NCBI GenBank assembly: GCA_010405405.1
Contig: MU004233.1
Location: 11,327 to 55,522, forward strand
DNA length: 44,196 nucleotides
DNA from: Microthyrium microscopicum
Lineage: Eukaryota
Reading direction: 5' to 3'
Below are positions 8,070 through 37,828 of the stretch, one piece after another. The position numbers and the translations under genes were made by a program. Numbering within the stretch: position 1 is the stretch's first letter; each line of letters starts with the position of its first letter. The notes beneath the pieces were generated by a model that made no database searches, was not told the DNA's origin, and saw nothing but the letters and a program-made list of their open reading frames with translations.

Positions 8070-8120
8070 AATAGAGGATATATATTTCGTAGGAAACTAT
8101 AATTTAGTAAAGGGATAGCT

Positions 8121-9439: not shown

Positions 9440-10770
9440 CTTTTATTATTTATTCTTTTTATTTCTTTTTTTATTTGTCCGTTATTACTAATATAGTTAT
9501 TATAATTATTAATATTATTATTATTTAGTTTTTTATACTCATTATAATAAAGATAAGATATTATATAGTTAAGTTAGAATTATAGTCACTATAAATCGTA
9601 TAACGTAAGTATATCTTAGTTACTATAGAAGAGAAGATTTAGATAATTTCTCTATTCTCTATAGCTACTACTTCTTCTTCTTCTTGTTTTTTGGCTATAG
9701 CTTTCTTCTTAAGCTATAGACGACGAGCTTCTTTGCGTCTAATAAGGATAATAGCTACCCTATATATATTATTACTAAGCCATAGTAGTATAGTAGAGTG
9801 ATAAATTATAGTATCTTAGTTAAGGCTAACTATATTAACCTTATTAAGTCTAGTAAATTTAATCTTTAATTCCCTAGTTACTATAAGCTTTATAAGGAGA
9901 TTAGGGTTCTATTTAAACTTCTGCTCAGTTCTAAAATTTAACGCTTTTTAATAAAAGTAATCTTTCTATCTTTTTTATAAGGCCTAGTTATTACTATATT
10001 TTATACCTTAAGCTATCTTAGGGGATATATTGTTTACTACCTTTTTGATTAATACTTTATACTTAGAGTAAATAGCCTAGGTAATTTTAATATAATATAA
10101 TACGCTATAAACGCGAATTAGCTTATACTATTAGTTGTAGGGTTATACTCTTTTAATTATACTATCTATTCTAAAAAGGTATTTAATAGAATTTTGTACG
10201 TTAGTATAGATATTAAAATAATCTAGTTAAAGGACTATTAGAGAGTTAGATAATAGATATAAGAATCTAAACTCTTAGTCTAATTATATAGTTAGAAAAA
10301 TAGTATCCTAGTATACTAAAGAGATAGAAACATAGTTAATTTAGTTATAAGGTATTAGAGGCAGTAGCTATAATCTATGCATAGCTAAAGGAATAATACT
10401 ACTAATATTATTAATAATTATCGCTTAGGTAGAACTAGTAAGAGTTATTAGCGACGAAAGAATAGATACTAAACTACGCTTATCCTACGATATAGTTAAT
10501 ATTTTAGCAATTCATCCTATCTAAACTTTTTAGCTATTGTTCTTTATAACCTTAGCTTTAGTAGGTTTAGCTTTAGTTGCCTTAGTCTACTCTTTAGTTA
10601 GTTTAACGTTAATAATTAATCTAGTAGTGTTAGACTTAACCTTCTTATCTAAAGCTTTAGTCTTTTTACTAGTTATATTTACCTTCTTTATAGTAGTTAC
10701 TAGCTAACCTTATATACTTTTAGCTATACCTATAGAAGAGTAGTTATTACTAGCTATTTTGCTAGGTATA
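9440..10770 (-). pseudogene. RIP-inactivated NADAR (YbiA/DUF1768-like) domain protein with Lys/Ala-rich N-terminus and charged C-terminal tail
   Basis: Minus frame reads QKFK*NPNLLIKLIVTRELKIKF (~9855-9923), matching KFxQNxxLxxxLxxTG. It then reads WLSNNIYRVAIILIRR (~9735-9782), matching WxGxNxxGxxLxxVR. The upstream HY...SP...W spacing is also compatible. Confidence 0.75.
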
Positions 10771-10861
10771 ATAAAGAACTGCCTACTTATCTAAACAAAA
10801 TATAACTAAGGAAATAATAACTAAAAAAAGGTAGGAATAAAAGGGAATAGCGACTAAGAGC

Positions 10862-11175
10862 CTACTAAAAACTATAATCTAGAAAGTAGAGGAAAAAAGC
10901 TAGGGAAATACTAATAAGCTACTAAAAACTACAACCTAGGAAGTAGAGAGAAAAAGCTAAGGAAATACTAATAGGCTGCTAAAAACTACAACTTAGGAAG
11001 TAGAGGGAAAAAGCTAGTAAAATACTAATAAGCTGCTAAAAACTATAACCTAGGAAGTAGAAAGAAGAAGCTAGTAAAATACTAATAGCTTACTAGAGAC
11101 TATATCTTAAGAAGTATAGGGAAAAAGCTACTAGAATAGTTAAGAGGCTACTAAAACATACAACTTAGGAAATAA
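10862..11175 (+). repeat. 57-bp tandem repeat (~6 units), each with the AAAACTRYAACCTAGGAA motif
   Basis: Units start near 10862, 10919, 10976, 11033, 11090 and 11148. Confidence 0.9.
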
Positions 11176-11716
11176 GTAAGAATTGTTATATATTTTATTA
11201 GTAACTTAAGGATGAGTAGTAAGGTAGGCAAAAGAGCTATAAGAAGCTAATAGAAACTGCAACCTAGGAAATTAATATAGGCTAAAATATAGGAATAGAT
11301 AATAGAGTAGTTTAAAGAAAATTTAGAGGAAATTAAGACTAAATAGTTAGAGGTTTTTAGCTTAACCCTAGCCTTATTAATATTTCTAAGGTTTTATAAT
11401 CCTTAATTTCCTAATATAATGCCTAGTATATACTACTTTAGGTAAGTACAATAAGAATTATGTAGGTTAGATATTTTATAACGCTAAGCCTTATAGTAGA
11501 CTACTATTTTAAGAAGTAATGAGTAAATTAAATATATATAGCTACTTCTTATTATAGTAATAATAGGTAATAAAGGGGGCTTTGCTAGCCTAAATAGGTA
11601 AATATTTCTAACAATATACTCTATATTAAAGGTACTATCTAAAAGCTATAACTTAGAAATATTAGGAAGTAAGTTTTAGCTTTAAATCGTTAGATAAAAG
11701 TTACAACCCTATAAAT

Positions 11717-12350
11717 ATTTAGTTATTTTAGGGTTGTAGTCTTTATGTAGCCCTTTATTAGGTATATATTCCTCTCTACTATTCTTTTCCTAGAGCTATT
11801 TTTACTATATACAAATTTAGTTATTTTAGGATTATAGTCTTTATGTAGCCCTTTATTAAGTATATATTCCTCTCTACTGTTCTTTTCCTAGAGCTATTTT
11901 TCCTATATATAAATTTAGTTATTTTAGGGTTGCAATCTTTATATAGTCCTTTATTTAGATATATATTCCTTCTTATTATTCTATTACTAGACTTTTTTAG
12001 CTATTATAATAGTCGTATATTTTAGAGTTATAGGTTTTGTATAGTCCTTTATTATATATATAATCCTACCTATTCTATACATTTTTAGCTATTATATTTA
12101 TAGTAAATTTTAGGGTTATAGTTTTAATATAGTTCTTTATTATATATATATTCCTTTCTACTATAGTTGTACTAGAAGGTATATTTAGGTACTATAATAG
12201 TAGTGTATTTTATAGTTATAGTTTTCAACTAGCTCTTTGTTATATAATTTAATATTATACTTATAGTCTATAAATATAGTTAGCTTTATCTAATAGTTAC
12301 TTAATAATGTTTTCTAGTATAATATATACTATTATTAGGTTATAGTTTTT
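11717..12350 (-). repeat. 98-bp tandem repeat degenerating rightwards, carrying the same motif in reverse orientation
   Basis: Units start at 11717, 11815 and 11913, followed by looser copies. Each has a variant of TTTTAGGGTTRYAGT, the reverse complement of ACTRYAACCCTAAAA. Confidence 0.85.
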
Positions 12351-12589
12351 ATATATCTCGTATTAGTTATATGCTATATTGTTATATATAAGGTAGTATA
12401 AAATATATACTTATTATATTTATTATTAATATTATATTTTCATATTTACAACTATAACTATACCTACTTAGATGTTACGATTAGTATATATCTTGTTACT
12501 ACTTTATAAAATGTTATCCTATATGTTTATATTGTCTATTCTATTCTCTATTATAAACTATTACATTGTAGCTATATATTATTATATTT

Positions 12590-13739
12590 ACTTTAGTTAG
12601 ACAAGTTCTATAATCTTAACTAATAATTGCTAGGAAGTCTACGTAGGTTATAGTATAATCCTACTATTTTCTATCTTACTTTAGACTATCTTATTTTACC
12701 TTCTATTTTCGTTAAGTGTTCGTAGAGGCTATTAATACTATAATTAACTATTTATCTTCTCTTACTATTAAGGTAGTAAATAGTATAATGCTAGTCGTAT
12801 AGTATATAGTATAATTCTAGTTTACTGTAGTGTTGTAGCTATAGATGTCTTATTATATATATAGGTATATTAGTTTTATTTTTAATTAATTTATCTATAT
12901 CTAACTCTTTTTCGATAGAGTTATCTATTTATTTTTAAGTTATTATAGAATTTATATGTAGGGAAGGTAGCTCGTAGTCTTGGTTTGTATAATATTTTTA
13001 GATTAATTATAGTTTTTATAGTGTATATTATTTGTCGTTATTGTTAGAGTTGTCTACTTTGCTAGTGTCGTTATTATTAATTAAGATTATTTCGTAGTCT
13101 TTTGTAATATTGGTTTAGGAGTTATTAGGGAGATTAGGTTCATTAGTATTTAGATTATCTAGTTATATTTAGGTATATTTAATCTAATTATATTTAGATT
13201 TATATACTTACTATAAAATTATTAAAGACTTTATATTCTTCTATACTATCTAGTCTACTCTCTTCTTTGCTACTTAGCTTAACGCTACTTTTGCTATCTT
13301 TTAGTTTAGTTTCGTTACCTACGTTATTAACGTCTAATATATCTTTATATTTACTACTCTTAAGTAATTTGCTAATATTTTAAAACTCTTAGGACTTATC
13401 TATAGAAGGAGATACCTAAGAGTATATCCTTTAAGCGTAATATTATTATAGTATCGTTATAGTTAAACTTTACTTCCTTAAGTTATATAATAACCTAGTT
13501 CTACTAGTTAGTTAGACTTGCTATATATTTATTAGTTATTAGTTATCTCTTATAAGGGAGTAAGTACAATTAGTTTTCTATTACTTTATACTACGTATTT
13601 CTACGTTATTATTTATCTTACCGTTAATTATCTTTAATATAGCCTATTTAGTAGTGAATCTTTTAGGTTCCTTTTGTATTAGTACTAGTTATAACATATT
13701 AGCTAATGTTTCTATTGCTGCGTAAGAGCTACTAGACAT
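12590..13739 (-). pseudogene. RIPed gene relic, unknown product; possible chromodomain-like C-terminus
   Basis: ATG at 13739 is followed by a coding-like frame (MSSSSYAAIETLANML). Near the end it reads YSINSLYEHLTKIEGKIR*SKVR*K. Confidence 0.45.
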
Positions 13740-14479
13740 TGTATTTTACTATTGCTCTATTATTTAATAAGTAGGTTATTAATTTTTACCTATATATACC
13801 TTTGTCTAACTAGATTTACCTATTCTTATAGCTAATAATAGTAAAATAGCCTAATCTTATCTATTAATACTTATAGTTATCCTATTAACCTAGTAATATA
13901 TATTATTAAGATATTAACTAGAAATGCTATTTTTTGGGGTTATAAATTTAAATAGCTTCTATATAATATTATAACTACTAGTATTATAATTCTTATTAGG
14001 CGAATTTCCTTATCTTAAATAATTATTTTGTTTAGGTATATAACTTCTATCTATTAAAAGCGCTGCCTAAGCTATCCTTACTAAGCCTATATAGTCTTTG
14101 CTTATTATTAAAGACATTTACACTTAGGGTTATATTTAGTTATCTAGTGTACAATTTAACTTAAAGGTAAGAGTAAGAAGTATTAAGTCTATAGTAGTAT
14201 AAGGAAGTAAAGGGTTTTGCCTAGGACTATAGAAAAATAAGGAATTAAAAATGCTTATATTAAGTATATTAGTAATAGGGATAGGAGGTAGTTTTAGGAA
14301 GTTTAGCTCTATATATTCTATTAACTTTAAACTCTTAATATAGTAGTAGTAAATATATATAAGTTATTATTTTGGGTTATATATTTACTTTATAGTAGAT
14401 TAGAGTTCTATATTAAAAGTTTAGAATAAATCTTGTACCTAATATAAAGAATATTTAATTTTAGTATTCTATACTATTT

Positions 14480-17200
14480 ATATATATATTATATATAAAC
14501 TTACCTTTCTTTTATATGCGTTATTTTTAGCGCCTTAGTTATTTTAATACGTTTTCATTAGGTATTTAAATATTATCTATCTTTTAAGTAGATTAGCTAC
14601 GATAAACTATCTGTAAATCTAATAGAGGTATGCTAGATTTAGTAAACCTTTCTTTACTAATAAACCCTTTATTACTAGTTAGATACAAATTATCTTTTAT
14701 TAATATAATATTTTCTACTTCTTTCGTTATAGGCGCTAATCTAGATGCTTATTAGACTAAGTCTCGTTATATATGCTACGAATTACTAGCTATTAGATAT
14801 TCGTAATTTTGGTTATCTAATCCTAGCTAGTAACTTGCCTTATTATATTAAGTCTAATTTAAATAGGTAGACTTAGAATCTTATTAATTAGCGTTATTAA
14901 AATTTATTAACGCATTATTTGCGTCTCTAGGATATATTAACTTAGGTTTATCGTTATCTAATTCTTCATAGCCTTTATTAATAGACGATGCTATTCTTAA
15001 TAGGTTGTTATCGTTACTTATTTTAACGAACTATATAGCTTATCTAGATTGGATATTACTTATAGTACATAGATATATAATTAGTTTGGCTATAGAAAGA
15101 TCTTGCTAGTAGTCTAAGCTAAGAATAAAATTATTAATAGCTTTATAGTACTAAAGATACTTACTATATAGTACTAATTTCCTATATATACTATATAGGT
15201 ATTATATACTATAATAACGATAAAGATACTAGTCTTTTTAACTAAAACTAACTACTTCTAGTTAAGACGAAAGTCCTAGATTAGCAACTAAAAGCATACT
15301 AGCTTTATTAGCCTTAGTAATTATAGCGTTAGTTACTACTTAATTTAATTTACTAGCTATAATGGTATAAGAGTTATTATATATCTCTTTTAGTAAAGTA
15401 AAAGCGTTAGTATTAAGAACGTTAATATATATAGTAAAAAATAGCCCTAATTAAAAAGAATAAGGAATACGTTATCTAGTTTTCTTAGCCTCTTTACTAG
15501 GCTTTGTAGTTTTAAGGAACTTACTACTATTGTAAATAAGTATAACGTTTAGCATAATAGATGCCTTTTAGAGTATAGTATCTCTTAACTATATACTAAG
15601 TTTGTTTTACTCGTTAAGGCTAGTTAGTTCCTAGTTATTTAATATACTATATAGTGCCTTAATAAATTTATAGTAGCTAAAATCCTTTTAATTAGGCATC
15701 CTATTAACTTCCTTAAGTATAGTAGGAAAATATTAACTAGGATAGACTTTAAATAGAGAGCCTAGACAATCTCTCTATATTTAAAGGTCTAGGAAGAGCT
15801 AATTAATAAAGCTAGGCTACTTATATTAACCTTTAGATCTTAGAATATTAATTAAATATGCCTTATTAGCTATGTCAAAATTAGCGTGCTAAGGAGACTA
15901 GTATATATAATTAATTAAGGGAGTATTAAGTCTATAGTACTTGTAAGCATATTATTTCTTAAGGCAAAAGGTCTTACTATAAAGGATAGTCTTTATATAG
16001 TACTAGTATATAGTAGTACTACCCTATATTCTATATGCTAACTATATTTATTTAAATCTAGGCAGCTTCTATTTAGGCTTACTAAGTATTATTTACTTAA
16101 CTTCTATAATAAACGCCTATACTGCTAATTCTGCCACAATTTTAAGGGCTTTATTAAGGTTTCCGTTTATAAGTGCTGCGCAAAAGATATTATATTAGAT
16201 AATAGAGGCTATAAAGGTAGGTTTAATAAGGTAAAGGATATTAGGGAAATTAGGTCTAGAAGGCATTTTATAGAATAATATAATAGTTTATTATAACTTA
16301 TATATAAATAAGTTAATAATTTAAATTATATAGAAATAGTCGTATATTTTATATTATAGGAATTTATCTATATTTTTGCGTCTAGACGTATATTTATTCT
16401 TATTACGTATATGCTAAACTCCTATCTACTACTAAGGCTATATTAACTTAGTCTTAGGCTCTATAGGAATAGATAGTAATTCGTATCTATTAGGTACGCC
16501 TTTTTACGCCTAGTGTAGTTAATAATAAGTTTTCTAATTTTATACTAGAGTTCTAAATAGGAGCTATCTACTAATAGTTAATCTTTATTCGTAGTATACT
16601 ATTCGTATAATTAAAATCTAATGTAGGTATTTTATTAGCTAATTAATTAATTATACGCTAAATCTAGTTTTTAGTTAGTTAGAGTCTAAGTATACTAACT
16701 AGTCCTTTAATCTATTTTAGGATCTTAGTAAGTATATTTACGTAATTATCTTACTAGCTGCTTAGCTCTTATTCTTTTATATATAACTCTAAGTTAGTAG
16801 GAAAGTATATTAAGGGCATTATAAGTACGTTAAGGAGAATAATATCTTCTAACTATATACTTTTAGCATAATTAGTTATATCTAACTTATCTTTATTAAG
16901 ATACTTATTAATAATTTATTAGGTATATTATATAAGCTATAGCGTATGATAAGGAAGTATTTCGTATATAGGTACTTTAACGTTAGCTACGTCTAGTTTA
17001 GGGAATTAGGTACTATCTAGGTTAATAACTTATTTTATCTATACTACTAAATAGGTTTACTTATCTTACTTAGGAACTTAGACTTATAGTTAGACTTCCT
17101 TACTATCTTTAAATGCTCATATAATTTCGTTAGAGTTAGCTCTAGTAAAGTAATATACTTTTTGTCGTACAATTTTACTACTATGTTTTTAACCTAATGC
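14480..17200 (-). pseudogene. RIPed gene relic with Cys/His-rich, putative zinc-binding segments
   Basis: 16821-16937 de-RIPs to AC-x2-C-x14-CD-x2-C-x2-C-x4-C, with only one TGC codon intact. ~15145-15230 de-RIPs to C-x2-C...H-x3-H. The boundary with the adjacent gene is uncertain. Confidence 0.45.
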
Positions 17201-17249
17201 TACTAGTTATATACTTTAAAGCTAAAGGTTTTAGAATATGTCTAGTTTG

Positions 17250-20200
17250 TTAATAAGAGTTTAGCTAAATGTAATAGTTGTATACTTAAACTTCTGCTAT
17301 GAAGTTAGTATATAGTTAGGTAGCATATATCGTCTTAGAGCAGCTATATCTACTTTTGGGGTAAACCTAGTATCCTTAGTCTTTAGGAATGTCTAAATAT
17401 AAGACTTAATAATATATATAATAGCTAAGAAGAATTGTTGCCTTTTCTTTATAGTTAATGCCTTATCTAGACTAATAATAGTCTAGATCTCCTTATATAT
17501 ATTAATAGCTTAAGTAATAAATTATTAATAAGGTAGCTTATGCTATATTAGTTTTATACTAGGTAGCTATATAGTAGAATCTAAAAGGTCTATTAAAAAT
17601 AGGGCGAATTGCCTATTAGATTATATTTTAGTAGCTAATATTAATGCTATAGATTTATTAGACTCTTTAGTTACTATAACTATAGGTCTATATTAAATTA
17701 GTTAAGAGATAATAGAAATATTAAGTCCTCTTAGTTTTATAGCCTCTTTATCTATTAGACGTCTAACCTTTTATAGGAAGAAATCTAGAGAGTAGTTCCT
17801 TTAAGGGTTAATAGCTCCTACTTTAGGTTGTTTTGGCAATTTTGTCTTATTTTGATATAATATATAATACTTATAAAATACTTAGCGTATATATACTTAA
17901 TAATAAAGTTCTCTAATGAACTAGGTAGTCTAAGTATATCTAAAAGAGTTATATAGAAAAGTAGCTTAGATAAAGGTAATCTTAATCTTAGTTTTTTTCT
18001 TATATTAATAAGTAGCATATAATAAATAAAGAGCTTAAGACTAAACGACTAGTTATTAAAAGGTTAAGGCTAGGTATAATAAGTTAAGGACTATAAGTAC
18101 TTAAGCAATTTTAGGTTATAGTACTAAAATTATATTGCTCTAGATAAAATATAATTATTTTAGCTAAATCGTTCTATATTGTTTTATAATAGTATATTCG
18201 TTAAGTCCTAGTTAGAAATATATCTTAGATTTTTTAAGGTTAGATTAAGCTATAGTAATATATTTACGCTATATATTACTATCTCTTGTAACTAGACTAC
18301 TAAAAATTAACTTAAGTATTTAAATATAAATAACTATAGTAGCTAAGTATCACTATTATACTACATTAGTAGCTTGTTTACAATATAAGTTAATTATTAG
18401 TAGTAGTAAATATTAGGTAGTAAGGAGAATTAGCTATAGCTATCTTTTTATAGATTTCTAGATAAAGTAGTTAACTTTAGACATAGAAAGTATCTAATAT
18501 AGGAAATGTCTTAAGACGTTAGGATTAGCATTAGTAAGCTATATCTAGTATAGATATAAGTATATACATTATAAATTTAGTTACTATAGATTACCTTAGG
18601 ATATAATATAGCATTCTTATCATTTTTTTAAAGGTCCCTATTTTATATAGACTACTTATATTAATTATAAAAGATATTAACTTAAAATTAGCGCTTAACA
18701 TAAACTCTAAACGTACTACTCTTACTAGCTTAATAGCTAGTATATACTTAGGTAGTAGCCCTCTATAACTAGTAGATAGTTATTTGTATAGATTACTTAG
18801 GTATATAGTGTTTTTTAATCTAGTTACGTTGTCATCTAGTAGGTCTAAAGTTATCTATATAGTATAAACTAAGTTGCTCTAGATGATTATATTAGAATAG
18901 TATAAGACTCTTATAAATAGTATTAAAGATTTCTTTATAAATTATATATGCTTTCTTATTTACTAGGCTAGCTTTATATGTTAGACTATTAGGCTTATAG
19001 TAAAACTTATAACTACTTACCTTATTAGTAAGAAACTATAGAAACTACTTAGGTTAAATCTTATTACTAGTATTAAGATTGCTATAATACTAAATCTAAT
19101 TTTTACTATATTCTTATTTTAATACTAGTATAATATCCTTAGTAGAGAGTTCATTACTATAAGTGTCTTAGTAAAATAGTATATCTTTATATATAAGATT
19201 AATATATAAATAGCGTAGTTTAACAAACGAAAGGTTAAAATAGTAATTTATATACTCCTAGTAGTTACTAAATCCTTAGATGGAGTTATTAGCTTTCTAT
19301 AATAGTTTGCTATTATGTAATATAAGTATAAGAATAGAATTCTTAAATATATCTAAACTTATTATTTAATCTAATAGATAGGTTATAATATTAGCTTGTT
19401 TATCTTTAGGATTTTTGGTAGTAGTATCCTTTTAGCTTAAGTTTACGCCTTAGAACCTTTTACTATAGTCTAGTATATAATCCTATAGAGATTTAAGGTA
19501 TTTGCCTTAGATTATAAAGGATATGTTAGCTAGGCCTAGCTTTAAGTCATTTTAGTTTCTTATTTCCTATTACGCTATAGCTATTATACGCGTATAATGT
19601 TTATTAAAGGGCATATACTATAGAACATTAATTAGACAAATATCCCTAATAGCTAGAAATAGAATATATTAGTGCTACTATTTAAGTTATTTTACATAAA
19701 GATGCTACTCTCTACTATAGGATATTAAATTAGGAAAATAAACGTAGATACTAAATCCTAATAATAACCTACCTCCCTAAATAGGAACCCTAAGATAGAT
19801 ATTCTTATACTTATATAGGTTTAGAATAGGCTAAATAATATTATATTCCTAATTAAAAATATAAATAGGATGTCTATATTTAATATAATTAGTTTTAAAG
19901 TACCTAAGGGACGTTAAGATATTAATCCTACCTTTATATATAGCTAGTAAAGATAAATAAAGCATAGTGCTATCTTAATTATAGACTCTACGTATATAAA
20001 TCTTATTTAGGTTTAGGACCTATAATTATTTAAGACTAAGGCGTAGCGTCTATCTCTTATTATAAAATATTAAATATTATAGTTTGCGTTAGTTCTTAGT
20101 TAATAGTATATAGGATTTATATACTTAGATAGCCTATATTATATTCTTTTCTACTATTATGCTATTTAGGAATTATAAGGGCATAAGGCTATTCTACTCT

Positions 20201-21250
20201 TTAGATATTAACCTTAAAGAATAAGTATAGTTTAGCTTAATTACGTCTACTACTAGAGAAGGTAAATCTAGTAGGGTAGATAAAGAGGATAAATAACTAC
20301 TAACTAACAGATAGCTAGTATTAGGATAGTTAAATAAATAATTATAATATTGGAATATAAAGTCGTCTATTTCTTGTAATATAAACTAGTAATCTTTAAG
20401 TAAAGGATAAGGTATTATCTAATAACGTAGGATATCTTTTTACTAAGTATTATCTTAAGTAGCTATATAAACGTTAGGATTAAGAGTATCTACTACAATG
20501 TTATTAATATAAGTTATTTCTATTAGCAGTATAGACTATAACTTATTACTATAGGATTCTTTATTATTACTATATTAGAGCAAGGAGATATCTAGGCTAT
20601 CTATATATTTAGTAGAGTATAAAGATTTATTATTACTACTGCTTAAGTATAACTCATCTATGTTTTTAACGTAATTTGCTACGTTATTATATAGTATATT
20701 ACCCTTAGATTATATATTATCTATATTCCCTTCCTTATAGTAATTATTACTATTATATTTATATCTTATATTATAGGTAGGTAGAGAATAAATAGTAATA
20801 GTAATAAAAGGGAGGTTATTTAGCTTAAGTATAGAGTTAGTTACTATAGCGTAACTCTATTAGTTTTAAACTACGTCTAGGAAGTTACTTAATATCATCT
20901 AAACTTAAGGTAGTAAGATAGGTAGAAAGGTTAGAAAATTAAATATAACCTCTTATAATCTAGTTAGAGTTAGTTATAATATAACTACTAGAGGTATACT
21001 TTAATTATACCTAAATAGCCTTAATTATATTCTATGTCGTTACCTACCCTTAGGGCTTAGGATAATAATATCTAGGTTTTAAGCTTATATAGTAGTAGCT
21101 ACTACCCTTTAATAAGATTGCTAATTTCTTAATAATTTGCAAAGAGGGTCTACTATAATTATAACGTTTTATTCTATTAAACGTAATAAAATTTAGATAA
21201 GCCTTAGTACTATCTAGTATTATATTTAGGTAAAGATATTTAGTATATAT
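17250..21250 (-). pseudogene. RIPed long gene relic resembling an uncharacterised fungal protein family
   Basis: Long coding-like frames with de-RIP motifs IYLG...IYVYFPNL...W...LFPAI...LQxxP, L..LW..I, AGL...Y...KEIF...PF...LEQL, FGVRVERR and LGL...YG.IW. The resemblance to fungal hypothetical proteins is from memory, not from a search. It contains the listed 66-aa ORF. Confidence 0.6.
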
Positions 21251-21366
21251 ATAATAGTATAGATAAGGTTAGGATAGTATGCAAAATTAATGTCTTAGAG
21301 AATATTAGTTTACGTAATAAGTATTAATTATAGAATAAGTATAGGTAGTTTAGAGTTTAAGTAGCA

Positions 21367-21432
21367 TTAGTATAGGGTTAGTATAGGGTTAGTGTAGGGT
21401 TAGTATAGGGTTAGTATAAGGTTAGTATAGAG
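21367..21432 (+). repeat. 11-bp telomere-like tandem repeat (TTAGTATAGGG, ~6 copies)
   Basis: Direct reading: ttagtataggg ttagtataggg ttagtgtaggg ttagtataggg ttagtataagg ttagtatagag. Confidence 0.9.
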
Positions 21433-21553
21433 TAATATAAAGAGATCTCTATAAAGTATAGCCTTAAAATTCTATACTATATAGCGGCTTTAGAGTTAAC
21501 TTTACTAAACCTTTACTATTATTAAAAGGGTTTAATTATATTAGTTAAAGAGG

Positions 21554-21719
21554 AACCTAAAAACTATAGCCTAGGAATTTATTACTATATAGTAGTTATA
21601 TAGTTAACTTTATATTTTATAGTATTTAAAATATATATATACTCTATAGTTTAAGAGATACCTAAAAACTATAGCCTAAGAATTTATTACTATATAGTAG
21701 TTATATAGTTAACTTTATT
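21554..21719 (+). repeat. Two ~60-bp direct repeats about 106 bp apart, each starting with the shared motif
   Basis: CCTAAAAACTATAGCCTARGAATTTATTACTATATAGTAGTTATATAGTTAACTTTAT occurs twice. Confidence 0.85.
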
Positions 21720-21879
21720 AATACCTAGTATATATTTTACTAATAACGCTAAGTATAATAAAGTAAGGATAGGTCTTTTACTAGTAGTATATAGTAGAAT
21801 AATAACCCTAATAGGGAAGTAAGTATATTAGTTAAGATATTAAGAGGAACTTATAAGATATAGATAAGTCTTTTATTAT

Positions 21880-24540
21880 TCTAAATAGCTTTGTTTACCT
21901 TAATTTTGCGTTCTATCTTATTGCTTATTCTATCTTGCTACTTATATTAGGGTTAATAGTAACTTCTTTATCCTATACTAGCTTATATATAGCAATTGTT
22001 ACTAAGTAAAATATACTAATCGTTCTTATAGGTAGCAAGCTAGATTATATTACTTATAACTATATCTAAGGTAGAGAAGGTAAATATAGTAGTAGAGGAC
22101 GTAGTAGCTACGAAGGAGGAGGACGTAGTAGCTATAGCAATACTAGGCTAAGATTAAGTTCTATAGAAAACTTCTTTATCTCTAAATCATAGTTACTTAT
22201 AAGAGCCTATAGTTAAATTATACTTTATACTAGAATAGGGTATTAAGAGTGAATAGGTAGCTTTCTCTACTACTAGCTAGTCTTTCCTAACCTATACTAA
22301 GTAACTAGGGTTAATAGCAACTTCTTTATCCTATACTAGCTTATATATAGTAATTATTACTAAACTAGGCTAAGATTAAGTTCTATAGAAAACTTGCTTT
22401 ATCTCTAAATTATAGTTACCTATAAGGAGCTTATAGTTAAAATATACTTTATGCCTTATAATGCTAGAATAGGGTATTAGGAGTATTTTTATTTAAGTAG
22501 ATAGGTAGGCTATGTTAGTAATAGTGAATTAGTCTTAGTAGAACTTCTAGAAGTAGAATATTAAAGGATAGCTTCTTCCTTAGCAATAGTAGAGTTAACA
22601 CTATAGCTATTATACTTTTTAAGATAACTTTATTAATATTATGCGTATCTTTTAGGACAACTTTATTAATGTTATGCTTATATAACTCTAGATAACTATC
22701 TCTTTTAAGATGCTACTGTTATTCTAATACTTAGCTTATTCTAGTCTAATTATATAGTATTAAGTATACTTATTACCCCTTATAGAAAGTCTAAGTCGTT
22801 AGATATACTATAAATACTTAAAGGAATAGCTTATAAGTAAGTACTATAGTTAATAAGAGGCAATTAAAATAACTAGAAGTTAGGAAACTACTATCTACTC
22901 TCTTCTATACTATTAGCTAGTCCTTCTTAACTCGTGCTAAGAGACTAGGGTTAATAGTAACTTCCTTATCCTATACTAGCTTATATATAGTAATTGCTAC
23001 TAAAGTAGATTAAGCTATAGCTATTAGTTTTTTTAATATATCTTTAATAAGAAGCTATATCTATAATAATAGAATATATCTATAATAATAGGATGTATTA
23101 CTAATAATAGAAACTAGTAATAGTAAGAAATTATATTATTAATAAGAGGATAATCTTTAGTTAGGAATATATATATATTAATAAGAAAAGTATATTAGGT
23201 TAAGAAGAGAATAAGCTATCCTCTATAGTAGATAAGCTCTCTACTAATATTATGCTTTATAAGAAGGATAGTTAGAAATATTTTATAGAGTTTTTAGATA
23301 AAAGCTACTATGCTAGGCCTCTAAGTTAAAGTCACTTTTTAAGCTACTATGAAGGATAATTAAACTAATTAGTTATTATATTGCTTTACTATATTAGTTA
23401 GGAAGAATATTAGGTAAGTTATTAGTATAGAAAATAGCCTAAGTATTTATAAGGATAAAGGCGCTATAATCTAAAGAGTTTTATTAATAACTACTCTCTA
23501 CTCTCTTAAATATCTATTTACTCTTGTCCTAAGTATTACTTAACTTATATTAAAGTATTTCTTTAGCTAAAGTAAGAATAGGTCCTTTGCTAGTAAATAA
23601 GGAGTTATACTAACGTACTTAACGTTATTAGGGAAGGATAGTTAGTAGGGTCTAGTAACTACCTTAATAAATTAGAATAAAGAGTTTATAAACACTAAGA
23701 AGATTCTTTCTACTAATTTTTTAGCGCTTTATTTAGTAGGTAATCTTTTTAATACTATCTTATTATTATATCTTATAGAACTAATAGGTATTGAGTATAT
23801 AATATTATAGAATATTATCTTTAATTAGGGTTCCTACTATTTTTATCTATTTAGTGAGTTTAGACTTAGCCTTTTTGTAAAGCTTAGTAAGGAAGCTATT
23901 AATAATTTCGTTATTAAGCTAATTAAGCAGTTTAAGAGTTTAAAGGTCTTTAATAGTAATTAGAGTTCTACTAATATTTAACTATAGTATCTACTATTAG
24001 AACTGCTCTTTATAAGGTAGGTAGTGCTAAAGCTACTCCTAAGCGTATTACTCCTACTAATAACTATAAGATTAGTAGTTAGTTTGTGCTTAAATTTATA
24101 ACGAGATTAAGTAAATAAAGTATCTACGTTAACTAGTTATACTTATTAACTACTAAAAGCAAACTACTCCTTAAAGTACTTCTACTACTAAGCGCTAAGA
24201 TTAAACTATGGAGTTTGCTAAGTTTTATAAGTTTAAAAATCGTTAAATTATAATTTAGACTAGTAATTTACCTAGTATAATAACGTTAATCTAGTAGGCT
24301 CTATCTAGTAAACATTAGACTAGTTATTTAATATCTTAAAATAGTATTAAACTAGATTACTATATATAACTAGGCCTACAAAAGAGGTTAGTAATTATAT
24401 AAAGGATTATACCTTTATTAAAACTTTCTTACGCAGAGTTAAAGATATATATCTTAAGCTTTATTTAGGATATTTTATAATTTATACAAACTATTAGAGT
24501 AGTATATACATTTCTAAGAAATTTAACTTGTTTCTATATA
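21880..24540 (-). pseudogene. RIPed spliced gene relic (one or two genes), low-complexity product with internal repeats
   Basis: Candidate intron at 24376-24432 (GTAAGA...CTAAC...TAG). A ~58-bp module recurs near 21948, 22307 and 22946 (de-RIP ~AVHEPVQDEEVAIDP). A ~110-bp module recurs near 22142 and 22365. Confidence 0.5.
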
Positions 24541-24570
24541 TTATCCTCTATTCTATTTTTAATACTAAAT

Positions 24571-24925
24571 ATTAGGTTAGCGTAGGGTTAGTATAGAGTT
24601 AGCCTAGGTTAGTATATAGTTTAAATACTAGCCTAGGGTTTAAATATTAGCCTAGGATTTAAATATTAGCCTACCTATATATAGGGTTAGCTTAGGGTTA
24701 GCCTAGGGTTATCCTAGAGTTAGCCTAGGTTTAAATGCTAGCTTAGGGTTTAAATATTAGCCTAGGGTTTAAATATTGGCTTGCCTATATATAGGGTTAG
24801 CTTAGGATTAGCCTAGGGTTAGCCTAGGTTTAAATGCTAGCCTAGGGTTTAAATATTAGCCTACCTATATATAGAGTTAGCCTAAGGTTAGCCTAGGGTT
24901 AGCCTAGGGTTAGCTAGGGGTTTAG
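24571..24925 (+). repeat. Compound telomere-like array of TAGGGTTAGCC (11 bp) and TAGCCTAGGGTTTAAATAT (19 bp) units
   Basis: The two unit types alternate in higher-order blocks separated by CCTATATATAG (three times). Confidence 0.88.
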
Positions 24926-25199
24926 AGTACTAGAAGTTTAATCTAGTTAACTTTTTAAGTATAGTTTATTAAATAATACTATTAATATTATATACGTTAT
25001 TATTATTTATGCTTATACTAGTATTATTTCTATATATATTCTTAATCTATTTATATCTTAATTATAATTATTACTATAGCAAGTTATTATATTCTTATTA
25101 TTATAAGTTAGTATTAGTAGAAGAGAGTTATATTAGTAGCAAATATAATAAAGAAGTTGAATATTAAATTTATTAATCTTAATTTAAATCTATCTATTT

Positions 25200-25792
25200 A
25201 CTTTAGTATTTAAAGTATAAATGTTGTCCTATAATTTAACTTAAATTGTAATAACTATTAGTCGTTAGAGTTATAACTCTAATTAATCTTTATTAGAACT
25301 TAAACCCTCTAAGTCTATATTATTCTCTAAGTCTAAGTCGTCCTTATTTAACGTATCTAAGTACTTAAGACCTTTATTACTATTATTATTATTACTATTA
25401 ATATTATTACTATTATTATTATTATTGTTATTATTAGTTATAAAACGTTAGGAAGGTTAACTATATATATATAGAATTATAAACGTTTAGATAAAGTTAT
25501 ATAGCTAGTCTATATTATTAGGATTAAAATCTTTCTATAATTTAATGTCCTATACTATTATATTAGCTAGTATTAGCTCTAGTAAGATTATTAATTATAA
25601 AGGGTTATAAAATCTAAGCAATTCTTTAAGGCGTACATTTAGTTTAGCTTATATTTACTCTTTTGTTAATTCTTCTATTTACTCTTCTATTTACTCTTCT
25701 ATTATTTTATATAGGTAGTAGGCTTTACGTAAAGAACTTATAAGGCTTATAATAATAGATATTATAGATATAGATTAAGTATTAGTAGATAT
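25200..25792 (-). pseudogene. Small RIPed gene relic with Glu-rich segment and an Asp/Asn homopolymer
   Basis: Frame reads SLRKAYYLYKIIEE*IEE*IEELTKE*I*AKLNVRLKELLRF. The in-frame (AAT)n tract at ~25375-25437 is likely former poly-Asp. Confidence 0.45.
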
Positions 25793-26316
25793 AGAAAGAG
25801 AAAGATAGAGATTTAGTATATAAGGTATTTATATTTTAATTTATTATATAGAATTAGGTAAGAGCAAAGTAACGCTTAGTTAGTTACTATATCTAACCTA
25901 GGGACTAGAAGTTACTTACTTACGTTAAGGTATTTCTTACTATTACTATATTGTTATAAATAGTAATTAAAATATTAAGGTTATAATTATAACGTATAGT
26001 AAGTTCTTAAGGTCGTTAGTATTAATATAAGACTACTATTAAGTAACTAGTCTATCTTAAGTAAGTAGTAGCCTAGTTCTTTAACTTTTCTTACTTATAA
26101 TTATTATATAAAAATTAAATGCTAGATTCTAGTTTAGAAAGTTCTAGTGTCTCTAAGCTAGATTTCCTTAGCCTTAGGTATTCTAGTATATATAGTTATT
26201 TTACTTCTAGTTTTTAAATTTTATCTATATTAATAACTTATATAACGTATGCCTTAATGTTTCTTTTTATTATAAATATAATACTATATTATGCTTTCTT
26301 TACTACTAAAGCCTAA

Positions 26317-26504
26317 GAGGTAGATAAAAACTATAGCCTAAGACTAGTATACTACGATTCTTTCTTATTATTATAAAGAGGTATATAAAAGTTGTAACCC
26401 TAAATTAGTATACTACGTTTCTTTTACTATTACTATAAAGGGGTATATAAAAAGTATAACCCTAAAGTAGTATATTATACTAGGTTATAGGTTTTATATA
26501 CCTC
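26317..26504. repeat. Cluster of three forward and one inverted copy of GAGGTATATAAAA plus the shared motif
   Basis: Forward copies near 26317, 26378 and 26440. Inverted copy TAGGTTATAGGTTTTATATACCTC at 26481-26504. Confidence 0.8.
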
Positions 26505-26779
26505 TAAGGTTTAATTTAGATAAATATAATAATGTTTTACGCTTCTTTTATTATTACCTTAAGGGAGCATAATAGAATTATAGTATAAGATTAATATATA
26601 TCTTATACTAAGTTGTAGTTCTATATTATCTATATAGGTTAACAAGTAGTTAATTCTTATTACTTAGGTTCTAAACTATAATCTAAATTATAACTTTAGT
26701 ACTAGGTTATTATTATTATTTAGGTTTTAAGATATATTTTATCTATAATTAAGCTTATACTATCTATATAAATAGTACT

Positions 26780-27545
26780 AATTATTAAAACTTAAAAGCT
26801 AATACCTTAAGAATCTATTTAATAGACTTCTCTATTAGGATAAAGTGCTTTAAACTCTTAGTTTTAAGGGCCCTAGGAGTTAGACGCTATTATGCTTCTA
26901 GCTAGTTATTTAGCGACTACTTTTGTTATCTATAGTAGTTTTAAAGTAATCTTAAAGTCTAGTATATACTTAGCTTTATTGCTAAAGGAGGCTATAAAGT
27001 TATTACGTTTTCGCTAGATAACCTTAGTACTAGTATAGTATTAGCACTAACTAAGACATAATTTTAGTTTAGACTTATATATAAATAAGAAACTATAGCT
27101 AGCTACTTAACTATTTCTAGCTAATAGTCTATATATTATATTTAGTAATAGCTCATTAAACGTTAGGTTTCTATAAACTACTTACGTAAAGATAAATATA
27201 AAAGTATTTTCTAGTACTACGCAAATAGCATTTATTATAGCCAACTTTACGATTAATATTATCATAGTCTATAGTGAGATTAGGCTAATTATTAAGGATG
27301 TTAGTAATAACTTTAATTATATAGCTACTATAACTAAATAGGGCTACGTTTATATTAGGTTTTACTATAAAGGCGTGACTAGATAGCTATATTATAAGTA
27401 TTAATAGCTAGATATAAATAGAAGATACTATTATTAAATCTTACTATTAGTATGCATATTATAGTGCTTTGCACGCTTGCTTCCTAATTAATAACATTAA
27501 AGGCCTTAATTATAAAGTCTTACTAAGTACTTAATATAGTAATAT
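26780..27545 (-). pseudogene. Small RIPed, probably intron-containing gene relic with a Cys-rich patch
   Basis: Frame reads NRKVGYNKCYLRSTRKY (de-RIP C-x2-C-x7-C), followed a few codons later by a GTAAGT donor-like site near 27186. Confidence 0.4.
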
Positions 27546-28766
27546 AGCTAAAATAAGGTTTATAGGTTAGTATATATAGTAGGACTTTCTATATAAAATT
27601 AACTTACTTATTTACTTATTTTATATATTACTATAATATAAACTATTATAAAGAGTAGAGAGTAGAAGAGAAAAGGATAGAGGTAGTAGAGTAAAGGAGA
27701 AAGAGAGAAGTATAGAATAAAAGAAGCAAAGAAAGAAGCTATAAATATAGGTAATATATATATTAGGCTTAGCTAGCGCGTAGGTAATACTATAATTACC
27801 TTTATAGGTAGTATAGTAAACTAGTACTACTTTAAGAATAATAATTAACTTTATATATAAGTATAGAAGCTAGAAACTAGGAAGAAATATTAAATATTAG
27901 TATTAGGAGTTAAAGTAGATATAGATAGATACGTAGATACTAGTAGGTATCTTTATACCTAAGGTAATAGTAGAACCTTATAGAAATTAATATAAGAAAT
28001 ATAGTTTACTTAAGCTAATTTATTTATAAATACGCCTTTAAGCTTTCTATTTAAGTCTTATAATAAGATTAATATATTATTAGGAAATATCTACTAAATA
28101 TATTATCTCTTATTTATTCCTAGATATAGAAGATAGTCTCTAAATAAGGTTAATTAATCTAGAAATAATGAAGAATAATGTTAGAATAGAGTATAGTTCT
28201 TATACTTTTAAAAATAAGATACCTTAACTAATATTAAGCTTTATTGCTAAGACGCGCTGCTAAATTTGATTTAGTAACTAGCTATAATACTAAAAGGGGA
28301 AGTACTTAAGTATATATTAGTATTAGGAGTTAAGGTAGATAAGAGTTAAGGTAGATAGAAGTTAACGTATATAAGAGTTAAAGAGCTAGGAGCTAGAGCT
28401 AAGAGCTAGGAGCTAGATTAAAGAGTAGATATTAAATATATATACTAGTAGTTAAAGCTAATAAAAGCTAGGTACTAAGAGTAGTATATATTAGATTTTA
28501 GTATTAGGAGTAGATAATAAATATTAGTATTAAGAGTTAAAGTAGATAGCTAGGAATTTTTTTAGGGAATTTTCTTAGGTTTATTTTAACTCTAGCGTAT
28601 TTTTGCTAAGTAAATTTTAGGTAGAAAGGTTTAGGTAGAGCTAGAATTAAGGTAAATAGTAACTAAATATTAGTAGTAGTAGCGTATAGTAGTATATATT
28701 TAAAAACTATAAACCCTAACCCTAAATTTATTCTAACTTTAGTACTATAGTTTAGTCTAAAATTTT

Positions 28767-28845
28767 ACTATACTAGTACAATAGTAGTACGTAACTCTAC
28801 TATTATATAAAGTTAAGGTTATAGGTTTAAATCCTACGTATAGTA
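28767..28845 (+). tRNA. RIP-mutated tRNA pseudogene, possibly ancestral tRNA-Gly(GCC), with a ~7-nt intron-like insert
   Basis: Complete cloverleaf: acceptor ACTATAC/GTATAGT, D stem GTAC/GTAC, anticodon stem TAACT/AGTTA, T arm ATAGG-TTTAAAT-CCTAC (de-RIP GTAGG-TTCGAAT-CCTAC), discriminator A. A T-run lies ~30 bp downstream. The anticodon position now reads ACT. Confidence 0.8.
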
Positions 28846-28857
28846 GAGTTACTTATT

Positions 28858-29169
28858 TAATCCTTACAAAGGATATTTTTTTTTACTATAGTAAAAAGAC
28901 ATAGAAAATAAGTAGCTTAACGAGCTAAATATAGATGCATTATCTATTTATTTTTTGGCCTTATGTTAGTAAAGATAGAGGTAATTTTATATATTTTAGT
29001 AACCTTAGTAGTAGTAAGGTTACTAGGTTAATCCTTATAGAGGATATTTTTTTGCTATAATGAAAAGACATAGAAAATAAGTAGCTTAACGAGCTAAGTA
29101 TAGATATATTATCTATTTCTTTTTTAGCCTTATGTTAGTAGAGATAAAGGTAATTTTATATACTTTTAT
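28858..29169 (+). repeat. Two ~140-bp direct repeats (period ~171 bp) immediately downstream of the tRNA
   Basis: TAATCCTTA...AAAGACATAGAAAATAAGTAGCTTAACGAGCTAA...GGTAATTTTATATA occurs at 28858 and 29029. The spacer contains the hairpin AGTAACCTTA-GTAGTAG-TAAGGTTACT. Confidence 0.88.
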
Positions 29170-30802
29170 AGTACTTTTAGGTAGAAGTAACCTTAGTAGT
29201 TACAAGCAAATATTAAGATATATTAAAATTAAATAGCTAAATTCCTCTACAATTAGCGTATATAACTTTATTAACGTTAAAGAAGTAATATAAGTCTTAG
29301 AACAAAGATATACTATAGAAGTTGTTAATATCTAGTAAGATATAGCGCTAAAGTTATATAGTAAGTAAATAGTAAGAACGTATTAAATTTTATAGCTAAT
29401 ACAATTTACTAGATAGTTATTATATAAAGATAACATAAGGTAATTTCATACTAAGTAATAAGAACTACTTTAATATACTTACTAATCTTATATAGACTAA
29501 TAAATTTGTCCTTATTATTATACTCTTATATCTTAATACGCTTTAATGCTCTATAAGTCTAGGCCTTTATATCTAAGTAGTATTAATACTAAAAGTATAG
29601 TAGACCTAAAGGAGGTTTGCATAGTAGAAGGATATAAAGTATATGTAGGGTAGTATTATTAGTAGAATAGAAGAGCTTATTACTTAATAACTCTCTAAGT
29701 TTTTCTAGGATATATTCTAGGCTACTTTAGTTAGTTAGTATAATAAGATTAGTATTAATATTAAGCTCTATTAAGTATATTTACTTTAATATATTTTATA
29801 GTCCTTTTAGAAACTTACTTATCTCTCTAAGGGCTAATTTATTAAAGTGCTAGTTATGTGTATGTTTATTATAGTTTTGCTATATTTTATAAGTAGTATA
29901 TTGCTATTATAAGTCTTTAACTAGTATAATTAATAGTAGAATAGGTAGTTTCCTTTTATATAGAGTTTATTATTAGAGAATATAGAAGAATAGTATTTTT
30001 ATAATCGCTAGGTAGAAAAAAGTAGTAGTATTAAAGAGTAGAGTTAGTAATATTTTAGTTTAGGGTTAGGTAAGGGTTTAGCTAAGGTTAAAGGAACTAG
30101 TAAACCCTATAATAATATGCTCCTTCCTTTATCTTTTATATCTTAATTATTATCTATACTATCTTCTTTAGTATATACAAATTATTTAATATTTACTATA
30201 ATAGAGTAGGGTAGTACCTATTATTACTATATCCTAGTCTTATAATAAGATACTAAAAAGCTATTTAAAGTCTATAACCTAGTTATTTAGTAGTCTTATA
30301 TTATAATAGTTAGTAACTATAGTACGTAGAGTAAATATATTTATTTAAGACTATTAACTTTTAGCTTAATTACAGTATAGCGTAGTATAGCGCAGTGTAT
30401 TAGTAATCTAGATATTACTATAGGCTTCTTAAAAACTATAGCCTAGGAGGAATATTAAAAAAGCTAGGTTATAGTTTTTAAAGAGTCCTTTAGAGTAAGT
30501 TACTAAGACTACTAGAATTAAATAGAGAGTTAACTTTAGACGAAGTAAATATAAGTAAATAATATATAGAGCTATAGGGTAGAGTAGTATTATACTATTA
30601 GGTATTAGTTTAGTAGGTATTGTCACTAATAGTTAAAAGAGAGGTTATATTCTATTAGTAAGTTACCTTACTAAGTCTCCCTAACGTAGTATTTTAATAA
30701 TAGAATTTTTACTAAGTCCTAACTTCGTACTATTAGATCTATCTACTTAATAAGAGTATTATATTATATAAAATTATATATATTTAATAGAGAACGTTAA
30801 CC

Positions 30803-31111
30803 TAAGTAATATAAGCTTTAGAGTATATTTATTAAGTAGGTATTAAAAGAGTTATAGAGGTATAGAGGTATCTCTCTACTAAAAATATAAACTTTTAGTA
30901 GTCTAATATTTTGCGTACAAACTAACCTAACTCTAGCTCACGAACGTCTACTATAATTTAAGTAATATAAGCTTTAGAGTATATTTATTAAGTAGGTATT
31001 AAAGAAGTTATAGAGGTATAGAAGTATCTCTTTACTAAAAATATAAACTTTTAGTAGTTTAATATTTTATATATAGACTAACCTAACTCTAGCTTATAAA
31101 CGTCTACTATA
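30803..31111 (+). repeat. 153-bp tandem duplication (period 156 bp) at the junction of two RIP regimes
   Basis: Copies are 30803-30955 and 30959-31111. Copy 1 has TTGCGTACAAAC and CTCACGAAC where copy 2 has TTATATATAGAC and CTTATAAAC. Confidence 0.92.
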
Positions 31112-31449
31112 TTTCTTCTTATTACGTAAAACTTATATCTCTTATCTATATAAACTTATTTTAATTACTCTTTAAGCTATATAATATATTATTCTTATAT
31201 TTAAGCTTTATTTATTTATTTTATTTAAAATACTATAACTTTTATTACTATCTAGTCTTCTTCTATATAATCTCTATTTTATATAAAATATTATAAATTA
31301 GCTAATTTAGTCTTATTTTCTAGGATATTATTAGTACTTACTTTTTACTTACTTTTATATTAGGGTAGTAATAATAAAAAAATAATATATTTCTACTATT
31401 ATAGTTAATTATACTACTAGTATTTTATAGTATTCTTAGTACTATTATC

Positions 31450-37803: not shown

Positions 37804-37828
37804 TTTCCTACTATAATATAGAATAATA

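What the first reader, a model, noticed from the sequence alone, without database searches (positions are those of the whole stretch)
28767..28845. Hidden RIPed tRNA gene near the right end of the element
All four stems still pair after mutation, which is very unlikely by chance. Dispersed host tRNA genes are usually too short to trigger RIP on their own, so this one was probably mutated as part of a larger repeat. It is either element cargo, as in large DNA viruses, or a captured integration target or SINE-like head. ACT could derive from GCC (Gly, consistent with the short variable loop), GCT or ACC. The 7-nt insert after position 37 would be an unusually short intron.
Basis: partly seen in the sequence, partly recalled or inferred. 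Interest (0 to 1): 0.7.

Follow-up and report, generated by a model that had tools for sequence, protein, structure and literature searches.

The report
Dead tRNA cargo in fungal transposon
A real but mutation-killed tRNA gene rides inside every found copy of a large chromosome-end repeat of a fungus, and the short DNA frame around it recurs, holding a different tRNA, near the ends of two other jumping genes of the same genome.

Summary
The cloverleaf at 28767-28845 is real (Rfam tRNA 46.2 bits). It occurs 16 times in the genome, always with shared flanks, 2.1 kb inside the sharp right end of a ~30 kb RIP-wrecked subtelomeric element that also captured part of the host Ulp1 gene. It is therefore internal cargo, not an insertion target, SINE head or RIP leakage. 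Retained pairing is what RIP itself gives; copies show no covariation. The 7-nt intron is ordinary here (host 6 and 9 nt). The anticodon is R-C-Y; Gly(GCC) is likeliest; no intact parent was found. The scan noted this relic before on another copy (e1-7560491). New here: its upstream motif and trailer recur around a different tRNA relic near the end of a FoHeli3-5-type Helitron2 (3 copies) and a TIR element (1 copy). Best reading: a captured tRNA cassette passed between elements as a passenger, now dead. A selected function (Pol III promoter, barrier, terminal signal) is not excluded. The enzyme that moved the 30 kb element was not identified.

The parts
28767..28845 (+). RIP-mutated tRNA gene relic, class I body, anticodon R-C-Y (reads ACT)
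   Evidence: Rfam RF00005 46.2 bits; column table of 16 copies; pair counts
28803..28809 (+). 7-nt insert at the usual tRNA intron position (placement uncertain by one base)
   Evidence: ARAGORN i(36,7); the same letters in 16 of 16 copies
28693..28726 (+). Upstream motif (TA-rich box, then two telomere-like CCCTAA units) shared with the second tRNA family
   Evidence: 7 genome matches, 0 for the reversed control, all directly upstream of a tRNA relic; 80-nt alignment score 58 against shuffle maximum 53
28739..28756 (+). Possible remnant of the 5' end of a second-family-type tRNA in the 40-nt spacer (weak)
   Evidence: score 24, reached by 31 of 2000 shuffles
28846..28884 (+). Trailer and T9 run (Pol III terminator-like), start of the first 169-nt unit
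   Evidence: sequence; its own match to the second family's trailer is not significant, 218 of 2000 shuffles
28857..29168 (+). 169-nt tandem repeat, 1.8 copies here; the unit at 29016-29052 matches the trailer of the second tRNA family
   Evidence: TRF; score 46 against shuffle maximum 31, 0 of 2169 window tiles
23070..23969 (-). Captured 3' part of the host Ulp1 (peptidase C48) gene with about 180 nt past its stop
   Evidence: 210 of 218 differences from the host gene are C>T or G>A; Pfam PF02902 on the host ORF; in 11 element copies
4350..5300 (-). SNF2-type ATPase relic (motifs I, II, III)
   Evidence: RIP-tolerant motif triple scores 40-42 in three copies, background 23 or less (motifs from memory); Pfam finds nothing
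2277..30954 (.). The carrier: ~30 kb multi-copy subtelomeric element; left end not assembled
   Evidence: colinear matches on C8, C3, C20, C10, C6
30946..30954 (+). Sharp right end, ...TACTAT, different flanks beyond
   Evidence: 15 of 15 junctions
30955..31110 (+). Second copy of the last 156 nt of the element, in tandem
   Evidence: direct repeat D17 and TRF; ends again in TACTAT

Best explanation
A tRNA gene was captured at DNA level, with its intron, leader and terminator, into a short cassette near the end of a fungal DNA transposon, was copied as internal cargo with the ~30 kb carrier to most chromosome ends, and was then destroyed with the carrier by RIP. SHOWN: real cloverleaf; fixed internal position; 16 copies; carrier with a sharp end and a captured host gene piece; no selection among copies; same flanks around a different tRNA in a Helitron2 and in a TIR element. 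INFERRED: the cassette arose once in an ancestral element (probably a FoHeli3-5-type Helitron, the class known for capture and self-insertion), moved between elements by capture or recombination in repeat-rich DNA, and had its tRNA body replaced once; it travelled as a passenger; the gene was most likely tRNA-Gly(GCC) (about 55%, my estimate: the only R-C-Y anticodon that is standard on a short-arm eukaryotic tRNA, recalled). The carrier is most likely a Helitron2-like element without its own Rep/helicase in the assembled part (about 45%).
For: cloverleaf; 16 copies, both flanks shared, 2109 nt from the end; 15 identical ends; host Ulp1 piece, RIP-only differences; pairing explained by RIP, covariation reached by 269 of 500 shuffles; second family, 4 copies, Rfam 30.7-38.6 bits, shared flanks; 69, 102 with PMC5148889 passages (the second carrier has TGCCT near its start, CTCCTAT near its end, a 13-nt asymmetric inverted repeat, PIF1 motifs on the opposite strand; head-to-tail nesting of the carrier; self-insertion is described for FoHelis); PMC13085455 passages for Helitrons with fixed polarity at chromosome ends.
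Against: No intact parent: four degenerate patterns over different arms return only RIPed copies or other tRNAs, and the nearest of 26 compared host loci differs at 9 non-RIP positions in 43, whereas the Ulp1 piece has its parent. The two tRNA bodies are unrelated (388 of 2000 shuffles), so a replacement step must be assumed. Shared similarity is limited to about 80 nt upstream and 37 nt of trailer, in AT-rich RIPed DNA, and the trailer match is to the second 169-nt unit, not the first. No PIF1 motif triple in any fetched copy of the carrier; its end resembles CTCCTGT only as a 7-mer that occurs about once per kb by chance; no similarity to the Helitron's last 70 nt; left end missing. Three carriers holding a tRNA near an end, pointing outward, is more order than a passenger needs.
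Confidence: 0.6

Rival explanations
1. The cassette is a selected part of the elements: a tRNA slot that gave a Pol III promoter or chromatin barrier between host DNA and the element's genes, or a folded single-strand signal near the rolling-circle terminus; any tRNA would do, so the body was exchangeable.
For: Same frame, different tRNA, in three element types, each time near one end and pointing to that end (2109 nt here; 125 nt in the Helitron; about 110 nt inside the TIR); genes lie on the opposite strand in the two carriers where genes were placed; in C11 the 232-nt cassette is 82% like the Helitron's while little else near it aligns. PMC10701932 (passages) speculates on a tRNA fold as Helitron termination signal. 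Barrier activity of tRNA genes is recalled from yeast work, not from a call.
Against: All 20 copies seen are RIP-dead; no covariation; no intact relative in metagenome or viral scans; terminal position is also where Helitron capture leaves passengers; three carriers in one genome are not independent.
Confidence: 0.15
2. The cassette is itself a small mobile unit (SINE-like or non-autonomous Helitron piece) that inserted separately into each carrier.
For: Sharp 232-nt block shared between C11 and the Helitron; Pol III boxes plus T run; in metagenomes 10 of 25 loci with the CCCTAA motif and an A box also have a B box (control 0 of 25), several looking like tRNA-derived SINE heads.
Against: No free copy: 7 of 7 motif matches lie in RIPed carriers and 16 of 16 copies share long flanks; no target duplication was noticed around the cassette (not searched systematically); the intron is kept; the metagenome loci were not shown to be relatives.
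Confidence: 0.12
3. Not transposon cargo: a host subtelomeric segment holding a tRNA gene was spread by recombination between chromosome ends, then RIPed, and the original was lost with it.
For: 14 of 16 copies lie within 60 kb of an end of a large contig and all 14 point inward, at 8 of 8 ends; absence of a parent fits loss of every copy.
Against: 15 copies stop at the same base with unrelated flanks; copies join into the middle of older copies; one copy is 1.1 Mb from an end; the flanks are shared with a Helitron.
Confidence: 0.09
4. One reading: integration target, SINE head at the element boundary, single host gene hit by RIP leakage, or cargo of a large DNA virus.
For: tRNA genes are known targets of Dada transposons (search listing only).
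Against: Whole, unsplit cloverleaf 2109 nt inside the end, 16 copies; no viral match; only host-type relics recognised.
Confidence: 0.04

Closest known systems
FoHeli3-5, non-canonical Helitron2 elements of Fusarium oxysporum (PMC5148889, passages seen; HLE2-reverse in PMC11417382, passages seen)
   Same: The second carrier has their termini (TGCCT; CTCCTGT read through RIP), asymmetric inverted repeat, reversed ORF and PIF1 motifs. The window's carrier shares with the family self-nesting, a fixed end and gene-piece capture.
   Different: The word tRNA does not occur in the main text of either paper. The window's carrier shows no Rep/helicase, is three times longer, and is polar at chromosome ends.
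tRNA-Cys cluster overlapping Helitron annotations in Arabidopsis thaliana (PMC10701932, abstract and passages seen)
   Same: tRNA gene near the 3' end of a putative Helitron; the authors say that capture of a non-coding RNA by a Helitron would be a first example.
   Different: There the Helitron was not confirmed by three predictors and the genes are live tandem repeats; here the Helitron has defined ends, the genes are dead, and the frame holds two different tRNAs.
Telomere-capping Helitrons of Paramecium (PMC13085455, passages seen)
   Same: Absolute polarity at chromosome ends with the right terminus inward, many internal minisatellites, nested and ORF-less copies.
   Different: Those insert into telomeric repeats and have RepHel ORFs; here the right end joins older repeats, not telomeric repeats, and no RepHel was found.
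RIP-degraded gene-bearing repeats of Stagonospora nodorum: X3X3R8, R25, X26 (PMC3017866, passages seen)
   Same: Multi-copy RIPed blocks holding SNF2-type helicase and ubiquitin-pathway genes or a host gene piece.
   Different: No tRNA is mentioned in that text; no sequence comparison was possible.
tRNA-derived SINEs (internal example: the 1.2 kb Ala-CGC-headed family of this genome)
   Same: Multi-copy, RIPed, intron-containing tRNA with Pol III boxes.
   Different: That family starts at the tRNA 5' end, has an (AAT)n tail and target duplications; the finding has none of these.

Membership tests
tRNA gene (Rfam RF00005), as origin | Cloverleaf with covariance-model score above the gathering threshold | tested here: met
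   46.2 bits against 29; register test
tRNA gene, as a working gene | Intact GG in the D loop, TTCGA T loop, usable anticodon | tested here: not met
   AG in the D loop and TTTAA in the T loop of the copies; z -0.04
tRNA-Gly(GCC) | Anticodon GCC and a matching intact host gene | tested here: inconclusive
   Compatible with RIP at both sites, but no copy keeps G34 or C36; no parent; the D arm resembles host Arg genes
tRNA-derived SINE | tRNA head at the 5' boundary with different upstream flanks | tested here: not met
   16 of 16 copies share 320-500 nt upstream
tRNA-derived SINE | 3' tail and target-site duplication | tested here: inconclusive
   None noticed in the alignments, no dedicated search; present in the control family
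tRNA-targeting elements (Dada, some Starships; recalled, listings only) | tRNA split by or abutting the element end | tested here: not met
   Whole tRNA 2109 nt inside the end
Helitron2 / FoHeli3-5 (window's carrier) | Rep/PIF1 helicase gene | tested here: not met
   No motif triple above background in fetched copies; left part unassembled, so an ORF-less or incomplete element is possible
Helitron2 / FoHeli3-5 (window's carrier) | 3' terminus CTCCTGT | tested here: inconclusive
   Ends CTACTAT, one non-RIP difference; such 7-mers occur 30 times in 31 kb
Helitron2 / FoHeli3-5 (window's carrier) | 5' TGCCT and asymmetric inverted repeat | not testable with these tools
   Left end lies in assembly gaps
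Helitron2 / FoHeli3-5 (second carrier, C2 and C14) | Termini TGCCT and CTCCTGT, 13-16 bp asymmetric inverted repeat | tested here: met
   against PMC5148889; RIP turns CTCCTGT to CTCCTAT; four further shared bases follow it
Helitron2 / FoHeli3-5 (second carrier, C2 and C14) | PIF1 helicase gene | tested here: met
   Motifs Ia, II, III in order, scores 44 and 41, background 18 or less (motifs from memory); Pfam and PDB searches blank
Plavaka (window's carrier; suggested by earlier notes) | Termini TGT..ACA or CATCA..TGATG (PMC12730594) | tested here: not met
   The right end does not fit either, RIP allowed for
Plavaka (window's carrier; suggested by earlier notes) | PF18759 transposase | tested here: inconclusive
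   No Pfam hit in 8 X-read segments, but the same test also misses the SNF2 relic
Telomere-linked RecQ helicase unit | OrsD/RecQ gene in the element | tested here: inconclusive
   The one PF12013 match of the genome lies elsewhere and its neighbourhood does not match the window; RIP limits sensitivity
Endogenous large DNA virus | Viral hallmark genes | tested here: inconclusive
   None recognised; Pfam scans are weak on RIPed frames; PHROGs not run; tRNA patterns absent from viral contigs

The most novel reading that the evidence does not exclude
Fungal DNA transposons of different classes (Helitron2, a TIR element, a polar subtelomeric 30 kb element) share an exchangeable tRNA slot near one terminus, a telomere-like motif plus any tRNA gene plus trailer, kept because Pol III machinery or the folded strand helps the element (barrier, promoter or terminal signal).
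Probability: 0.15. Interest if true: 0.7.

Novelty: new variant of a known kind. Interest (0 to 1): 0.36.

Why it matters
The relic alone is ordinary transposon cargo. The shared frame is the point: Helitron capture of a tRNA gene is barely documented (PMC10701932 calls its own unconfirmed case a possible first; my searches listed no fungal case by title or abstract start, but the library lacks most subscription papers and I read no supplements). Here a Helitron2 with defined ends carries one, and the same frame holds another tRNA in an unrelated carrier, which gives a concrete marker to look for in intact elements of other fungi. The case also shows that RIP keeps stems paired by itself, so pairing in RIPed DNA is no sign of selection.

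Tried and rejected
Parent search: Rfam scan of the genome scored only 63 of 1518 candidates, 33 matches, 30 fetched; none fits; four patterns gave no intact parent. Host tRNA genes here can carry spliceosomal introns, so a parent broken in two or more of the tested segments, or lying in a gap, is not excluded. Relatives elsewhere: D-arm pattern 0 in viral and metagenome contigs; motif plus A-box pattern 0 in viral contigs, 25 metagenome loci, none shown to be related, no ARAGORN tRNA at the motif in 25 of 25; sequencing runs only of one sample; their contigs showed no intact copy among the listed differences, 94 rows not shown; mis-specified pattern, missed even the window, discarded. Carrier enzyme: Pfam blank on 8 segments; HMMER over 1.84 billion proteins blank for 14401-16200; word searches blank (one search was in the wrong frame); single-motif scan too noisy; tblastx of Helitron against carrier blank; search for an inverted partner of the right end found only scattered 14-mers in other repeats. 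Similarity of the two carriers beyond the cassette: none. First alignment mixed strands and was redone. One search timed out. Rejected: Ser assignment (ARAGORN label for ACT/GCT; no long variable arm); direct descent from host Arg-TCT, -CCT or -TCG genes (same D arm, other stems differ by transversions).

Full report
1. Observation. The stretch 28767-28845(+) matches the Rfam tRNA model over its full length at 46.2 bits, E 6.9e-8. It parses as acceptor 7, D 4, anticodon 5, T 5 pairs, anticodon ACT, a 7-nt insert after base 37 and a 5-nt variable loop; 20 of 21 pairs are Watson-Crick. The window is RIP-saturated and has no ORF of 90 codons. A T9 run follows 30 nt downstream.

2. Copies and carrier. 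A search of the own genome gives 16 full copies at 85-100%; a D-arm pattern returns the same 16 and no control match. All 16 share 320-500 nt upstream and 321-500 nt downstream. They belong to an element that is colinear with window 2277-30954 on several contigs and ends at the same base...TACTAT, in 15 of 15 junctions with unrelated flanks (three junctions were put in register by hand). The tRNA is 2109 nt inside this end. Fourteen of the 16 copies lie within 60 kb of an end of a large contig, at 8 different ends, and all point inward; contig C4 begins with telomeric repeats. One copy is 1.1 Mb from an end and one is on a 27 kb contig. Copies often join head to tail into the middle of an older copy. 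The left end falls in assembly gaps. The element holds a 900-nt piece of the host's Ulp1 gene with its 3' flank; 210 of 218 differences are C>T or G>A, so it captured host DNA. SNF2 motifs I-III are found in three copies (motifs from memory). Both relics lie on the strand opposite the tRNA. The mobilising enzyme was not found.

3. Is retained pairing a signal? No. Per-copy RIP rates from 11 Ulp1 copies are CpA 0.96, CpG 0.83, CpC 0.23, CpT 0.15. Because a CpA in one stem arm faces a TpG in the other, RIP changes both. Applied to 9 host tRNA genes these rates lose at most one pair in 32-77% of runs, random changes in at most 0.3%. The other copies keep 12-18 Watson-Crick pairs, 3 of 15 reach an Rfam match, and covariation equals that of shuffles (269 of 500). 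The window copy is the best-paired of a dead family.

4. Which tRNA? C35 survives in 14 of 16 copies; A34 and T36 are invariant but sit in TpG and CpA contexts. In the Ulp1 control an invariant T in C-T-A was a host C in 54 of 85 cases and an invariant A in T-A-C a host G in 7 of 37. So GCC, GCT, ACC and ACT remain. GCC (Gly) is the only one standard on a short-arm eukaryotic tRNA (recalled), but the D arm resembles the host's Arg genes. ARAGORN accepts the reverted gene with a 7-nt intron for all four anticodons. Host introns of 6 and 9 nt make the intron ordinary. No intact parent was found; the Rfam genome scan was incomplete (63 of 1518 candidates scored) and some host tRNA genes are split by spliceosomal introns.

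5. A second family in the same frame. A loose end among public contigs laid on one copy led to another RIPed tRNA family: four copies, Rfam 30.7-38.6 bits, no intron, different body. Its upstream 80 nt match ours (score 58; 0 of 2000 shuffles; 0 of 1083 window tiles) and its trailer matches the start of our second 169-nt unit (score 46; 0 of 2000; 0 of 2169 tiles). The first unit, directly behind our tRNA, matches only at chance level (218 of 2000), as do the two tRNA bodies (388 of 2000). A pattern for the upstream motif, built from both families, gives 7 matches in 37 Mb and 0 for the control; 3 are ours (of 16 copies; RIP breaks the rest), 4 are the second family, one of them not used to build the pattern. 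The fourth lies about 110 nt inside a long terminal inverted repeat of another element on C11, sharing a 232-nt block at 82%. Outside the cassette the carriers do not align.

6. How it most likely works. The cassette is cargo. Shown: fixed internal place, capture behaviour of the carrier, death by RIP, sharing of the frame. Inferred: origin in a Helitron2-type element, transfer between elements, one replacement of the tRNA body (an 18-nt piece like the other tRNA's 5' end sits in our spacer, but weakly: 31 of 2000 shuffles), and no function for the carriers (0.6). Rivals: selected slot (0.15), small mobile unit (0.12), spread by subtelomeric recombination (0.09), target, leakage or virus (0.04). 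The carrier works like a polar, self-nesting, gene-capturing Helitron (compare Paramecium, PMC13085455, passages), but membership is not shown: no RepHel, left end missing, only a weak 7-mer likeness at the right end. Plavaka, suggested by earlier notes for what may be this family, does not fit the right end (PMC12730594, passages).

7. Known and new. The relic itself was reported earlier in this scan on another copy (e1-7560491). Captured host pieces in RIPed fungal repeats are known (PMC3017866, passages). A tRNA in a Helitron was proposed for Arabidopsis as a possible first case and not confirmed (PMC10701932, abstract and passages). Searches listed no fungal case by title or abstract start; no supplements were read and most subscription papers are not held. 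Verdict: new variant of a known kind, interest 0.36; the bold reading (exchangeable tRNA slot of fungal transposons) has probability 0.15 and would deserve 0.7.

Noticed in passing
L153 (C11:838677-), L154/L058 (C2:2380529-), L156 (C14:1074582+), L173 (C2:2648535-): Second RIPed tRNA family in the same frame, 125 nt inside the end of a ~17 kb FoHeli3-5-type Helitron2 (3 copies) and inside the TIR of another element (1 copy); no host parent among the loci compared.
   Followed up: yes
L041-L043, L049-L051, L054, L055, L057, L059: A 1.2 kb SINE-like family headed by an intron-containing tRNA-Ala(CGC): 10 copies among the 30 fetched tRNA loci, starts exactly at the tRNA, (AAT)n tail, target duplications of about 13-18 nt, one copy un-RIPed.
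   Followed up: partly
L120 (C3:2794779-) and L118 (C2:2872581-): Host tRNA-Arg(TCT) and tRNA-Arg(CCT) genes whose acceptor stems pair 7 of 7 only after removing a 48-nt or 55-nt GT..CTAAC..CAG intron; fits earlier notes on spliceosomal introns in tRNA genes of this genome. L155 (C3:2128483-) looks similarly split and was not tested.
   Followed up: partly
window 2277-30954 and copies: The carrier is polar at 8 of 8 chromosome-end clusters, forms head-to-tail nests with a fixed right end and variable left breaks, and holds many minisatellites, some telomere-like (21367-21430, 24576-24919).
   Followed up: partly
C11:838500-873500 (L168-L171): A ~35 kb RIPed block bounded by inverted repeats of about 75 nt, with nested insertions; class not determined.
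   Followed up: no
window 31063-36000 and beyond: A different repeat family starts just right of the element, with copies on C11, C14 and C16 that are not polar to chromosome ends; long inverted repeats at 37824-38529.
   Followed up: no
L174, L187, L195, L196: One GC-rich metagenome locus, seen in four contigs, with the CCCTAA motif followed by A-box, B-box and T run: the same layout in an unrelated organism, relation unknown.
   Followed up: no
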